This document shows positions 13,760 through 29,316 of a stretch of DNA of 64,000 nt, one piece after another (position 1 is the first letter of the stretch; every line of letters starts with the position of its first letter). The position numbers and the translations under genes were made by a program. The stretch comes from an uncultured Armatimonadetes bacterium (GTDB lineage Bacteria > Armatimonadota > Hebobacteria > Hebobacterales > Hebobacteraceae), in NCBI GenBank assembly GCA_963716175.1, contig OY970296.1, positions 800,001 to 864,000 on the forward strand, read 5' to 3'. The notes under the pieces are model-generated. The model made no database searches. It saw only the letters and a list, made by a program, of their open reading frames with translations, and had not been told where the DNA came from.

Positions 13760-14221
13760 CTAGGCGCTTTCGCCCGAGACCTGGCCGAGGTCCAGATGGG
13801 TCCGTCGGCTCTCGGGGCAAGGCGGCGGGCCGTTTTCCGCCGATTCGGCCCCAAGCGCCGCCTCCAGCCCGATCTCCCCCGCCAGCGCCGCCCGCAGCGC
13901 CGCGATCTGCTCGCTCTGGGCCGCGTCTGTGAGCTCCAATTCGTGCCTGGGCTCCCGCTGGCCCAGGATCTGCTTGCCCAGCCAGATCTGCATCACCACG
14001 TTGCCCTTGCTGGCTGACTGCCACTGCAGCCGGCGCAAGCTCATTCGGCCCGCCTCCCGCCCCTTTTCTATCACCCCAACTAACTCCGCCTGGCGCCGCT
14101 TGCGCTTGCGGAAGCCTTCGGGTGTGAAGCCGAGCACGGAGGCGATCTCCGCATCCGTGCACTGGATGCGAGCCAGGTCCTCCACCAGCTTCAGGTCAAC
14201 GGGCTTTGCGGGTCTAGCCAT
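13760..14221 (-). CDS. Phage terminase small subunit-like HTH protein
   Basis: LARIQCTDAEIASVLG...SLRRLQWQSASKGNVVMQIWLGKQILGQ; position after a ParB-MTase is typical of phage packaging modules. Confidence 0.6.
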   Translation of the reverse strand: MARPAKPVDLKLVEDLARIQCTDAEIASVLGFTPEGFRKRKRRQAELVGVIEKGREAGRMSLRRLQWQSASKGNVVMQIWLGKQILGQREPRHELELTDAAQSEQIAALRAALAGEIGLEAALGAESAENGPPPCPESRRTHLDLGQVSGESA

Positions 14222-14423
14222 CTGCTCTCACCGCCGCTCGGTTGCAGTCATCTGGGCCGTCCTGCGTTGCCCTCACCATGAGACAGTCAGCATAGTCTGG
14301 CCCCAGCAGGCATTCGGTGGGCATTCCCCGCCGCACGTAGCTGAGCTGCCAGCCCTCGCGCTCATAGCAAGCCACCTCGTAGGCCCACACGCGAATCCAC
14401 TCCGTGGCAGCATCGCGGGCCAC
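14214..14423 (-). CDS. Hypothetical protein
   Basis: GAGGTG-GTG start; packed between MTase and TerS-like gene. Confidence 0.4.
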   Translation of the reverse strand: MARDAATEWIRVWAYEVACYEREGWQLSYVRRGMPTECLLGPDYADCLMVRATQDGPDDCNRAAVRADG

Positions 14424-14430
14424 ACCCACC

Positions 14431-15735
14431 TCACTCGACACGGACGGCCTCCTGCCCGGTGAAGGACTCCCACCGGGAGAGGATGACATCGCAGTATCTG
14501 GCATCCAGGTCGAAGCCGAAACAGCGCCGGCCAGTCCGTTCAGCGGCGATGATGGCGGTCCCCGATCCCAGGAAGGCGTCAACAACCAACTGCCCCAGTT
14601 CGGTGGCATTGGCGATGGTGCGTTCGATCAAGGGCACGGGTTTCATGGTAGGGTGCAGGTCGTTGGACAGGGGCTTATCGTGTTCCCACACCGTGCGCTC
14701 GTTGGTGGGGCCGTGCCAGCGCGGGGCCTGGCCTTGCTTGTGGGCGTAGAAGCAGGGCTCGTACCAGTGCTTGTACTGGGCGAACAGTGCGCCCGCGCCG
14801 TTGTTCTTCACCCACACCAGGAGGTTCCGTTCCTGCCAGCCAGTCTCAGCCATGCAGTCCAGCACATCCCGCAGATGCGAGCTCGCGAACCAGAGGTAGA
14901 GGGGCGCCTTGTCATCTGAGTGCTGATGGGCCAGACCCAGGCTGGCGGTGAGCAGGTGGCGATATTCGTCATCGGTGAGGTCGTCCCAGTAGGCGTCGCC
15001 TTCTTGTCCCTGGGCGCCTCGGCGCTTGGCCCCTATGCGCTCCTCCTGAGCAGCTCTTCCGCCGAGGTAGTTGATGGCGTAAGGTGGGTCCGTGATGATG
15101 GCGTGAGCAGTTTCGCCGGCCATCAACCGCACCCAATTCGCAGGGTCGGTGGCGTCACCGCACAGCAGCCGATGCCGGCCTAGCTGCCAGAGCTCTCCTG
15201 GCTGCACCCGCGTCGGCCCCTGCTGCCGCTCGGCCTCCGCCATTGCCCGCTCGGCGTCGAAGGTCTCCTCCTGGCCCTGCTTCTCCCCCGCCTCCAGCCG
15301 CAGCAGCAACTCATTGAGATCATCCTGCCCCCAGCCCGCGGCAGTGAGCTGATCCTGCGCCTCCAGGTCGCGAAGCAGGGTTGCCAGGGCAGCCTCATCA
15401 TCCTCGGCCAGATCGCTGGCGCGGTTGTCGATGGCGAGGAACGCCTCCGGGTAGGGGCCGTCGTAGACGTGGCAGGCGATCTCGGCCCAGCCTTCGGCCC
15501 GCGCCGCCTCCACCAGACCATGACCCGCGAGGATGGTGCCATCCGGTGTGATCACCACCGGCTTCTGCTGGCCATGGATGCGTAGCGACTCTCGCAGGAT
15601 GGCGAGCTGGTGCTCTGGATGGCGGCGGTAGTTGCGCGGGTGGGGGAGCAAGCTGCTGATGGCCCGCCTCTCAATGGTCAGGTGAAGGTCCGTGCTCGCG
15701 GCGCCTTCTCTCGTTTCGGCCTGCTGTGATGTCAT
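14431..15735 (-). CDS. ParB-N plus N4/N6 DNA methyltransferase (phage type)
   Basis: HPRNYRRH...ILAGHG; TDPPY; HPTMKPV; DAFLGSGT; RBS AGGAG. Confidence 0.9.
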   Translation of the reverse strand: MTSQQAETREGAASTDLHLTIERRAISSLLPHPRNYRRHPEHQLAILRESLRIHGQQKPVVITPDGTILAGHGLVEAARAEGWAEIACHVYDGPYPEAFLAIDNRASDLAEDDEAALATLLRDLEAQDQLTAAGWGQDDLNELLLRLEAGEKQGQEETFDAERAMAEAERQQGPTRVQPGELWQLGRHRLLCGDATDPANWVRLMAGETAHAIITDPPYAINYLGGRAAQEERIGAKRRGAQGQEGDAYWDDLTDDEYRHLLTASLGLAHQHSDDKAPLYLWFASSHLRDVLDCMAETGWQERNLLVWVKNNGAGALFAQYKHWYEPCFYAHKQGQAPRWHGPTNERTVWEHDKPLSNDLHPTMKPVPLIERTIANATELGQLVVDAFLGSGTAIIAAERTGRRCFGFDLDARYCDVILSRWESFTGQEAVRVE

Positions 15736-27504: not shown

Positions 27505-27510
27505 GAGCCG

Positions 27511-29283
27511 ATGCGACTCGCTGACATCGTACAAGGCGAGGCCGTCGAGCTCTCGGCCGAAGACCAGAGCGTTCGCCAGTTCCTGGCCTACGCCCGCGTC
27601 TCCACGGATGACCAGGAGCGGGCCGGCCTTTCCATTCCAGCCCAGCTCCGGGAGATGCAGCAGTACGCGCAAGCCAAGAGCATCGTCCTGGTCGGCATCT
27701 ACCAGGAGGCAGAAAGCGCCTTCTCTGACGAGAGCCGCCGCCCCGAGTTCTGGCGGATGGTCGAGCGGGCCAAGAGCGACCCGAAGATCACCGGCATCCT
27801 GGTGCATGACCACTCCCGCTTCTTCCGGGACCCGTACGCGGGGCCGCAGGTGAAAGGGGAGCTCCTCGCTCACGGCGTCCGCGTCATCTCGGTGACCGAG
27901 CCCGAATACGATCCGCGCACCATCGCGGGGCTGGCCATCGAGAAGATGACCGAGTTCAAGAACGCCTCCTACTCCATCGATGTCGCTTTCCACACCCGCA
28001 AGGGCATGAAGGAGAACGTCGCCCGGCGGGACCCCGAGATCGGCTACTGCTACAAGAACGGCGGAGCGCCACTGTGGGGTCTCGCGGCCTACAGGGTGCA
28101 GAGAGGCACGGACCGGCGGGGCGCGCCGATCATGAAGACGCTCTGGCGGAAGGACGAGACCACGGTCGCGGGTCGGCCGGTGTGGGAATGGGCCCGCCAC
28201 GCTCTGGTTGAGCTTCGCTTGAAGCAGAAGGCCTCCCTGGACCAGATACGCGACTTCCTGAATGACCACGGCGTCCCCTCCCCTCGCAAGCACTACTGGG
28301 CAACCAGCAGTTGGCACGAGTTGCTGGAACCCTCTGCCCTGCTTCAGTACGCTGGCTACGGGGTGTGGAATGTCCACGCCAAGAAGGGCCGGCACCGACC
28401 TGCTGCCGAATGGCAGATCGTGGAGAATGCCCACCCGCAGATCATCACTCTGGAAGAGGCCGAAGCAATCCTGGAGGTCAACGGGCGCCAGCGGCGGCTG
28501 GGCGCGGACCGCTCGAAGGGCCGCATGACAAGCGTTCGCACCCAGGCGAGCCCATACCTCCTCAGTGGGGGGCTGCTGGTCTGCAAGCGCTGCGGGGCGA
28601 ACATGGTGGGATACCGAAATCGAGGCCGGCTCTACTACGTGTGCGGGGCGAAGGCCTACCGCAAGGGCCTGGGGTGCGGACCGGGCCTGCAAATCCTCAA
28701 AGGGGAGATCGAAGCCGCCATCGTGAAAGAGGTCGGCCTGCTCTTCGATTCCTGGACTGACACGAAGAAGCTGATGGAGATGGTCAACGACGAGGTCCGG
28801 GCGCTCGGCCAGCAACGGGCCTCCGAATCGGTCGAGGTCGCGCGTGAGCTGATCAAGGCCGACGAGGAGCTTGGCAACATCCGGCAGGCCATCAAGGGGG
28901 GCCTGAACGACCTGGACTGGGCGAACGCCGAACTGGCCCGCCTGAAGGCGCGGCGCGAGGAACTTCTCACCCGCCAGGGGACACTCGTGGCGGAGCCGGA
29001 AGCGCCTCGCTTCGACCTCACCCAGGTGAGCGAATGCCGCAGGCGCTTCGCGGAGGTATTCGCGCAGGGCACGAACGAGGAGAAGCGGGCCTTTGCTCGC
29101 CTGTTTGTGAAGAAGACAGACATCGACCCGGCCACTGGGGACGTCTGGATGTACCTGTTCAGCCGTCCGCCAGGCCTGGCGGCGCACGCTGGCCAAAAGC
29201 GAACACCCGCCTCCGAAGAGACGGGTGCTGCAATCGGGTTGGTAGCGGGGGCAGGATTCGAACCTGCGACCTCCGGGTTATGA
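27511..29283 (+). CDS. Large serine recombinase (integrase)
   Basis: YARVSTDDQ, SRFFRD, recombinase domain, Zn ribbon CKRCG...YYVC...GC, coiled coil; ends LVAGAGFEPATSGL inside the tRNA. Confidence 0.93.
   Translation: MRLADIVQGEAVELSAEDQSVRQFLAYARVSTDDQERAGLSIPAQLREMQQYAQAKSIVLVGIYQEAESAFSDESRRPEFWRMVERAKSDPKITGILVHDHSRFFRDPYAGPQVKGELLAHGVRVISVTEPEYDPRTIAGLAIEKMTEFKNASYSIDVAFHTRKGMKENVARRDPEIGYCYKNGGAPLWGLAAYRVQRGTDRRGAPIMKTLWRKDETTVAGRPVWEWARHALVELRLKQKASLDQIRDFLNDHGVPSPRKHYWATSSWHELLEPSALLQYAGYGVWNVHAKKGRHRPAAEWQIVENAHPQIITLEEAEAILEVNGRQRRLGADRSKGRMTSVRTQASPYLLSGGLLVCKRCGANMVGYRNRGRLYYVCGAKAYRKGLGCGPGLQILKGEIEAAIVKEVGLLFDSWTDTKKLMEMVNDEVRALGQQRASESVEVARELIKADEELGNIRQAIKGGLNDLDWANAELARLKARREELLTRQGTLVAEPEAPRFDLTQVSECRRRFAEVFAQGTNEEKRAFARLFVKKTDIDPATGDVWMYLFSRPPGLAAHAGQKRTPASEETGAAIGLVAGAGFEPATSGL
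29195..29227 (-). terminator. Hairpin terminator downstream of tRNA-fMet (inside the integrase CDS)
   Basis: CACCCGTCTC-TTCG-GAGGCGGGTG followed by TTCGCTTTT. Confidence 0.6.
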
Positions 29284-29316
29284 GCCCGACGAGCTACCTG
29301 GCTGCTCTACCCCGCG
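29240..29316 (-). tRNA. tRNA-fMet (CAT)
   Basis: CGCGGGGTAGAGCAGCCAGGTAGCTCGTCGGGCTCATAACCCGGAGGTCGCAGGTTCGAATCCTGCCCCCGCTACCA; C1:A72 mismatch, GGG/CCC anticodon stem. Confidence 0.97.

What the first reader, a model, noticed from the sequence alone, without database searches (positions are those of the whole stretch)
13760..29316. Capsid-less, sigma-factor-encoding integrative element: candidate undescribed satellite/IME class
Seen: integrase and two small genes, diverging from unknown pair, ECF sigma, small gene, primase-helicase, iteron-like repeats, Zn finger, paralog pair, ParB-MTase and TerS-like. No TerL, portal, capsid, tail, relaxase or T4SS gene is present. Known: PICI-type satellites carry int, primase/rep, ori and TerS and hijack helper phages, but typically use repressor/AlpA-type regulators rather than their own sigma factor. 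Inference: a sigma-controlled satellite carrying defence and surface cargo, or a truncated prophage.
Basis: partly seen in the sequence, partly recalled or inferred. Interest (0 to 1): 0.75.

Follow-up and report, generated by a model that had tools for sequence, protein, structure and literature searches.

The report
Truncated prophage from cross-phylum family
This stretch is most likely the left-over front half of a dormant bacterial virus rather than a new kind of virus parasite, but its poorly described family matters because nearly identical copies sit in the chromosomes of bacteria from different phyla.

Summary
No second att copy lies in the window, and island cargo runs off its edge. 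No TerL, portal, capsid, tail, relaxase or T4SS gene was found. The sigma factor is not a satellite trait: it lies next to the small gene in 59 of 61 GTDB loci of one family. That family carries DUF2924 and a serine integrase, a LexA-like repressor, the unknown pair, recombination genes, primase and ParB-methylase. Of 8 loci where the expected TerL position is visible, 6 have TerL (2 also portal). No capsid gene came within reach. Best reading: a divergent, truncated prophage. Against it: no close relative with context, intact ORFs, and several relatives that also lack packaging genes. The notable result concerns relatives: 90-98% identical copies over 16-18 kb begin at each host's own tRNA-Asn in Zixibacteria, Desulfobacterota, Nitrospirota and others. 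The unknown pair is a predicted RdgC/CENP-N-like protein plus a Zn/nuclease-like/winged-helix protein, sometimes fused.

The parts
29240..29316 (-). tRNA-Met(CAT), integration target and right boundary; host genes follow (htrA, holB, tmk)
27511..29283 (+). Large serine integrase, intact, reading into the tRNA; a different clade from the DUF2924-linked integrase of most relatives (24% to the L060 integrase)
27154..27504 (+). Small ORF (116 aa), no family hit; candidate directionality factor (inference only)
26637..27161 (+). Cys-rich small ORF (174 aa), no family, phage or locus hit
25236..26387 (-). U1 (383 aa): large unnamed family; predicted fold resembles RdgC/YejK/CENP-N
23731..25239 (-). 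U2 (502 aa): Cys/His Zn module, PD-(D/E)XK-like fold, OmpR-type winged helix, plus an extra C-terminal domain with a similar helix/strand pattern; overlaps the U1 stop; fused to U1 in two relatives
22888..23487 (-). ECF-like sigma-70 factor (regions 2 and 4); core gene of the family
22491..22817 (-). Small conserved gene (about 103 aa), family marker used as search anchor
19694..22453 (-). AEP primase-helicase fusion (45-53% to L051, L054, L061)
19534..19752 (.). Cluster of short direct and inverted repeats at the primase 3' end; putative origin. Comparable clusters follow the primase in L012, L040, L054, L059, L061
18790..19230 (-). Cys/His finger protein, weak HGGxSTG-domain hit (E 4e-4, below cut-off)
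18006..18806 (-). Paralogue A (266 aa), unknown, not found in the 61 loci
17435..18016 (-). Paralogue B (193 aa), unknown
15762..17432 (+).
14431..15735 (-). ParB-N6/N4 methyltransferase (phrog_498; 35% to AcaML1 gp25)
13760..14221 (-). TerS-like gene, last phage gene seen; its homologue in phage pOW20-A lies between a DNA methylase and TerL
9909..13383 (-). Beta-propeller/NHL plus SLH surface protein, split by a frameshift near 13.1 kb; cargo at the place where TerL would be expected
8848..9825 (+). XerC-like tyrosine recombinase, antisense to the operon. Relatives also have an antisense Xer-like gene after TerS, but identity is only 33-38% and orthology is not shown
8530..8739 (-). Decayed C-terminal fragment of another tyrosine recombinase
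   Evidence: local profile, E 2e-4
1..8283 (.). Restriction/defence cargo: HNH 7378-8283, methylases 2897-5909, HNH 1764-2894, and a DUF4357/winged-helix gene cut by the window edge; whether it belongs to the element is unresolved

Best explanation
The region is the integration, control and replication half of a temperate phage-like element at tRNA-Met that has lost everything after TerS, with cargo and an IS110 accumulating at the broken end. Shown: gene content, family synteny, TerL/portal in relatives. Inferred: in full-length members a LexA-like repressor holds the element silent until DNA damage. The U1-U2 pair (RdgC-like DNA binder plus winged-helix protein) and the element's own sigma then switch on the replication and late operons. 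The primase-helicase starts replication at the repeats behind its gene, the ParB-methylase marks the DNA, and TerS, TerL and portal package it. The window copy has swapped its integrase and lacks LexA, the gene before sigma, the recombination genes and all packaging genes past TerS. It cannot make particles, though it may still excise or replicate in place.
For: Small gene and sigma are adjacent in 59 of 61 loci. The same loci carry DUF2924 (39), serine integrase (43), LexA (37), U1 (31), U2 (32), exonuclease (45), Sak4 (45), ERCC4 (40), RecD2 (38) and DnaG (36) of 61, although many are cut by contig ends. TerL is present in L031, L036, L045, L057, L059 and L061, with portal in L036 and L045, and absent in L019 and L047: 6 of 8 loci where its position is visible. 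L061 has the window's short layout (sigma, small gene, same helicase family, ParB-methylase, TerS-like) and then TerL. Relatives stop at many different points: after the small gene (L005), ERCC4 (L033, L058), RecD2 (L015), primase, the Xer pair (L019, L047) or TerL (L061), often at an IS. That pattern fits decay. Methylase-TerS-TerL is the order in phage pOW20-A. The complete phage AcaML1 shares DUF2924, integrase, the small recombinase gene, AAA_24 and ParB-methylases with the family, and its gp6 is weakly U1-like (E 2.6e-5 among 29 proteins). Atlas clusters of a U1 homologue list Uroviricota as the commonest taxon in two of the top three. Local decay: IS110, a frameshifted surface gene and a recombinase fragment.
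Against: No relative is close: the window sigma is a long branch (54% at best), and TerS, the finger protein, the paralogues and the two small ORFs hit 0 of 61 loci. All core ORFs in the window are intact. No capsid or tail gene was seen in any locus, because the flanks end at or before the portal; in L059 and L061 TerL is not followed by a portal. Nine loci (L003, L016, L026, L028, L037, L039, L041, L042, L051) show no backbone gene after the primase, with 1.2 kb or more in view. L041 looks like the inverted form, but a recurrent packaging-free form is not excluded. U1 and sigma have no match among 50,697 phage records. The left end lies outside the window.
Confidence: 0.62

Rival explanations
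1. A TerS-type satellite derived from this prophage family: it kept integrase, sigma, primase, origin and TerS, shed the morphogenesis genes, and is packaged by a helper, perhaps a full-length family member.
For: Integrase, primase-helicase and TerS are three of the five PICI core components (10.1101/2022.09.14.508007, section 17). The ORFs are intact, the integrase-to-TerS span is about 15.5 kb, and defence and surface cargo follows TerS. The recombination genes are also missing in L019, L026, L029 and L061. Satellites with serine recombinases, TerS and methyltransferases are reported (PMC9618062, passages).
Against: No second locus ends after TerS (0 of 61 even has this TerS). No att pair. 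No AlpA/Stl/MerR or capsid-morphogenesis hit. A ParB-methylase before TerS is the start of a phage late operon. The cited authors treat three-component elements as ambiguous. L061, with the same short early region, has TerL.
Confidence: 0.15
2. The prophage is rearranged rather than truncated: a large cargo insertion or an inversion has moved TerL, portal and capsid genes beyond the left edge of the window.
For: The island runs off the window and the second att site was not found. In five relatives (L030, L031, L036, L045, L047) the late arm is inverted relative to the replication block. Insertions inside the late arm are common.
Against: At least 13.7 kb of non-phage cargo would separate TerS from TerL. 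In relatives TerL lies within about 2.5 kb of the TerS-like gene or methylase.
Confidence: 0.15
3. A non-viral integrative cargo shuttle (tycheposon-like or IME-like) that moves defence and surface genes by vesicles, transformation or a helper conjugative element; TerS is incidental.
For: tRNA-targeted integrase plus primase plus cargo matches the general tycheposon description (10.1101/2020.12.28.424599, passages). Cross-phylum spread of relatives is easier to picture without a receptor-dependent virion.
Against: No relaxase or T4SS. Relatives carry LexA, phage recombination genes, TerL and portal. No match in plasmids for U1, sigma or a relative's primase gene.
Confidence: 0.08

Closest known systems
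Acidithiobacillus phage AcaML1 and Wolbachia phage WO (DUF2924-serine integrase temperate phages)
   Same: Relatives share DUF2924 (E 1e-36), integrase (6e-162), small recombinase gene (3e-18), AAA_24 (2e-84) and ParB-methylases (2e-155) with AcaML1, in a similar order ending in terminase, portal and capsid. DUF2924 next to a recombinase is mentioned for WO (PMC10299305, passage).
   Different: AcaML1 has no hit for sigma, the small gene, U2 or LexA. The window copy has another integrase clade and lacks DUF2924 and all virion genes. The family uses several TerL types (phrog_2, phrog_38, gpA).
PICI / SaPI satellites
   Same: Integrase, primase-helicase, origin-like repeats and TerS in about 15 kb, with cargo after TerS.
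   Different: No AlpA/Stl/MerR regulator, no capsid-morphogenesis gene and no att pair found; carries a sigma and a ParB-methylase; homologous loci have TerL and portal.
Tycheposons and VEIMEs
   Same: tRNA-linked integrative elements with primase/helicase, sometimes a serine recombinase, TerS or methyltransferase (passages).
   Different: Their hallmark profiles were not available for testing; sigma is not named among their genes in the passages seen; the family here has TerL and portal.
RdgC / YejK / CENP-N fold proteins (for U1)
   Same: Best structural matches: RdgC (Foldseek E 1.1e-3 in PDB; phage RdgC-like proteins to E 9e-6), CENP-N (Z 9.1, rmsd 5.2, 170 aligned), YejK (Z 4.9).
   Different: Identity 6-16%, TM-scores about 0.2-0.3, no sequence-level hit; a shared fold shows no function.

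Membership tests
PICI | Integrase | tested here: met
   Large serine recombinase
PICI | AlpA/MerR/Stl regulation module | tested here: not met
   No such family among main ORFs or six-frame segments; general libraries, not the SatelliteFinder profiles
PICI | Primase-replicase | tested here: met
   AEP-TOTE plus phrog_10537/19930
PICI | Capsid morphogenesis gene | tested here: not met
   No hit
PICI | Small terminase subunit | tested here: met
   phrog_309 E 4.6e-9; homologue directly before TerL in pOW20-A
PICI | Flanking att repeats | tested here: inconclusive
   None in the window; the left end may lie outside, and serine-integrase cores can be very short (recalled)
PICI | Helper-dependent excision and packaging | not testable with these tools
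   Needs induction, read or virome data
ICE/IME | Relaxase and/or T4SS | tested here: not met
   No hit in Pfam or NCBIfam scans
Tycheposon | Hallmark gene profiles and partial-tRNA flanks | tested here: inconclusive
   Profiles not on hand; no partial tRNA in the window
Complete temperate tailed phage (window copy) | TerL, portal, major capsid, tail | tested here: not met
   within the window only
Temperate tailed phage (related loci) | TerL and portal | tested here: met
   TerL in 6 of 8 informative loci, portal in 2
Temperate tailed phage (related loci) | Major capsid and tail genes | tested here: inconclusive
   The 10-kb flanks end at or before the portal
AcaML1/WO-like phages | DUF2924-serine integrase-small recombinase cassette | tested here: not met
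   Absent from the window; DUF2924 present in 39 of 61 relatives
ECF sigma-70 factors | Regions 2 and 4 in about 200 aa | tested here: inconclusive
   Region 2 above cut-off; region 4 and TIGR02937 just below; activity untested
RdgC/YejK/CENP-N fold (U1) | Structural match over the domain | tested here: inconclusive
   Consistent top hits in three searches, but Z 9.1 at best and low TM-scores

The most novel reading that the evidence does not exclude
The parent family is a temperate, TerL/portal-packaged virus lineage that really crosses bacterial phyla. It integrates at tRNA-Asn, tmRNA or tRNA-Met and uses its own sigma factor, a U1-U2 switch and its own replisome to run independently of the host's regulators. 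Shortened copies such as this one, ending at TerS or at the primase, are passengers that full-length members can still mobilise. Chromosomal junctions in a complete genome and in chromosome-scale assemblies would give direct evidence of cross-phylum lysogeny, with cultured hosts (Syntrophus, Desulfosarcina, Syntrophorhabdus) in which to test it.
Probability: 0.3. Interest if true: 0.8.

Novelty: new variant of a known kind. Interest (0 to 1): 0.45.

Why it matters
The window copy is probably an ordinary remnant, and it shows how a broken prophage can pass for a satellite (integrase, primase, TerS). The family is the interesting part. Cross-phylum viruses are mostly inferred from spacers, Hi-C or single cells and are rarely isolated (10.64898/2025.12.20.690322 and PMC10533544, passages and section 8). 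Here 90-98% identical elements join directly to each host's own tRNA-Asn with unrelated flanks, under purifying selection, and some hosts are cultured. That makes host range and the role of the sigma factor testable. U1 is a family of 2,353 clusters at 50% identity with no Pfam name, and U1-U2 may be an undescribed phage regulatory or sensing module.

Tried and rejected
att search: no copy of the tRNA-Met 3' half in the window; an initial 12-base motif search gave chance-level counts. The 56-nt 75% repeat at 8726-8781 / 13675-13730 was considered as att sites of an Xer-plus-SLH unit: score 61, with 1 of 200 shuffles reaching it after post-hoc choice, so it is not used. Invertible replication block: no consistent inverted repeats at its ends in any locus tested, apart from a 24-nt match in L030; the five inverted loci are 87-94% identical where compared (L047 not compared), so one event may explain them. 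U1-U2 complex prediction: no verdict, score 0.11 against a mark of 0.32. U2 Foldseek search: no match at E <= 0.001. U1 against PDB sequences: nothing credible. No phage or plasmid match for U1, sigma or the Cys-rich ORF, and none in plasmids for a relative's primase gene. Promoter and terminator scan at chance level. The idea that U1-U2 is only interchangeable defence cargo was considered and stays open: the slot also holds QueC-like, RelA/SpoT and other pairs, but clusters 67/70 are distant U1/U2 homologues. The sigma tree is the quick version only. The Atlas did not hold U1 or a small-gene homologue. Taxonomy look-up of Ozemobacter failed; its phylum (Riflebacteria) is recalled. Paper searches that found no description of this family; most subscription journals are not in the library, and no supplements were read.
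Full report
1. Observation. The genes listed are present at the stated places. The integrase is a large serine recombinase whose last codons overlap tRNA-Met at 29240-29316; housekeeping genes follow to the right. The repeats behind the primase are more than chance: 6 copies of one 7-mer in about 200 nt, a count reached in 4 of 637 windows, the other three being one GC-only motif. No TerL, portal, capsid, tail, relaxase or T4SS family was found in the main ORFs or in 136 further six-frame segments. 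Two corrections are needed. An IS110 lies at 15762-17432. The left end is unknown: no att copy was found, and a frameshifted NHL/SLH gene, an Xer-like gene, a recombinase fragment, HNH nucleases, methylases and a cut DUF4357 gene fill 1-13400.

2. The family. U1 (25236-26387) has 764 homologues among 8,000 candidates scored and 2,353 clusters at 50% identity, but no match in 50,697 phage or 72,556 plasmid records. I anchored the single GTDB scan on the small gene: 134 pattern matches gave 61 loci from at least 13 phyla by the record labels. Sigma lies next to it in 59 of 61. The usual order is tRNA-Asn or tmRNA (16 and 6 of the 55 loci scanned), DUF2924, serine integrase, small recombinase gene, LexA-like repressor, U1-U2 or another pair, a 110-aa gene, sigma, small gene, exonuclease, Sak4, ERCC4, RecD2, primase, repeats, late genes. 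My gene calls were automatic and picked some wrong-strand ORFs; the presence counts come from profile searches over all ORFs. The window copy has another integrase and lacks DUF2924, LexA, the 110-aa gene and the recombination genes. It is a long branch, 54% at best in sigma (quick tree).

3. Do relatives go on into packaging genes? Most flanks end too early. In 8 loci the expected TerL position is visible. TerL is present in L031, L036, L045, L057, L059 and L061, and absent in L019 (IS6) and L047 (restriction genes); a portal follows in L036 and L045. L029, L030, L040, L052 and L054 end just short and were not counted. L061 has the window's short early region and helicase family, then methylase, a TerS-like gene and TerL, then cargo. 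No capsid gene was in range anywhere. Other copies stop after the small gene, ERCC4, RecD2 or the primase. Nine stop at or just after the primase, whose 3' end is mosaic; this recurrent end is the main point against simple random decay. The window's TerS homologue in phage pOW20-A sits between a methylase and TerL, and in HTVC112P it lies after a methyltransferase and 1.4 kb before TerL. The complete phage AcaML1 shares the integration cassette, AAA_24 and methylases with the family, but not sigma.

4. The unknown pair. The U1 model (pLDDT 86) matches RdgC, phage RdgC-like proteins, CENP-N and YejK weakly but consistently. The U2 model (pLDDT 90) has conserved Cys/His residues, a restriction-nuclease-like fold (Z 7.6 at best) and an OmpR-type winged helix (Z about 6); one homologue carries PF00486. 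I saw no conserved catalytic triad among the well-conserved columns, so an inactive fold is inferred. U1 and U2 are fused in 2 of the 5 long proteins among the top 150 hits (P0334, P0349). Their position between repressor and sigma suggests a switch; defence is the alternative. Neither is shown.

5. Mechanism. See Best explanation. Gene content, synteny and TerL/portal in relatives are shown. SOS induction through LexA, activation by U1-U2 and sigma, origin function and packaging are inferred from established phage biology. The window copy cannot package itself with the genes in view.

6. Cross-phylum copies. L007 (Zixibacteria, 3.98-Mb chromosome), L016 (Syntrophus buswellii, complete genome), L011, L013 and L025 (Desulfobacterota), L012 (Ozemobacter) and L023 (Nitrospiraceae) are 90.8-98.0% identical over 16-18 kb, starting at the tRNA. 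L010 and L020 (Desulfomicrobiaceae, Hydrogenedentota) are 99.1% identical over 10 kb. Each host has its own tRNA-Asn sequence, and shared element sequence starts right after it. The 16 upstream flanks share no blastn hit, and flank GC ranges 0.44-0.64 while element GC stays 0.60-0.61 in the first group. dN/dS is 0.00-0.24 for ten genes in four pairs, by a rough count. Host labels are record titles; short contigs (L008, L009, L021, L037) lack a junction and may be mis-binned. This concerns relatives, not the window copy.

7. Literature. SatelliteFinder paper (10.1101/2022.09.14.508007): passages and section 17; three-component elements are treated as ambiguous. Tycheposons (10.1101/2020.12.28.424599) and VEIMEs (PMC9618062): passages. 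WO and DUF2924 (PMC10299305): passages. Phage sigma factors in 14% of genomes (10.1101/2021.11.12.468384): passages. Cross-phylum viruses (10.64898/2025.12.20.690322, passages; PMC10533544, passages and section 8, which reports 30 multiphylum temperate viral genera); their supplements were not read and could include this family. PMC5567305: passages, not informative. Searches returned no description of this family; other papers were seen as listings only.

8. Verdict. Not a new satellite class on present evidence. Most likely a truncated prophage (0.62), with rearrangement (0.15), satellite (0.15) and non-viral shuttle (0.08) as rivals. Interest 0.45, carried by the family's cross-phylum integration and the unnamed U1-U2 module.

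Noticed in passing
L007, L011, L012, L013, L016, L023, L025 from about 1855 onward; L010 and L020 from about 1735: Elements 90-99% identical in hosts labelled as different phyla, each joined to the host's own tRNA-Asn with unrelated flanks.
   Followed up: yes
L030, L031, L036, L045, L047 (about 1-8600): The late arm (origin to TerL/portal) is inverted and lies upstream of the sigma block; L041 shares the primase-side junction. No clear inverted repeats.
   Followed up: partly
Primase 3' ends, e.g. L012:18600-18900 and L046:18590-19140: At least four alternative C-terminal tails, different repeat motifs after the primase, and a second tail copy in L046: primase tail and origin may be swapped as a cassette.
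   Followed up: partly
Slot between LexA and sigma in L004, L018, L019, L024, L035, L041, L052, L055, L058: Variable gene pairs: QueC-like with a C-terminal domain, phrog_21102/25990, RelA/SpoT, XRE-ImmA, distant U1/U2 homologues.
   Followed up: partly
window 8726-8781 and 13675-13730: 56-nt repeat, 75% identical, flanking the Xer and SLH genes; borderline against shuffles.
   Followed up: partly
window 9909-13383: Beta-propeller plus three SLH domains, frameshifted near 13.1 kb; the SLH style recalls Armatimonadota (recalled, untested).
   Followed up: no
window 55559-58116: clpC is split into two ORFs; with the SLH frameshift this may reflect assembly indels rather than decay.
   Followed up: no
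window 1764-5909: HNH nuclease converging on two adenine methylases (D12 class and Eco57I/TaqI-like): a likely restriction-modification cluster, with lower GC.
   Followed up: no
window 52502-52531 and 59580-59609: 30-nt arms, 93% complementary, 7 kb apart in intergenic DNA; possibly a small repeated element.
   Followed up: no
L040:19066-19206: A 47-aa fragment 57% identical to the L045 portal lies before the HNH and methylase genes.
   Followed up: no
L027, L043, L044, L045 (record OZ252029.1): Four family copies in one chromosome, three within about 180 kb.
   Followed up: no
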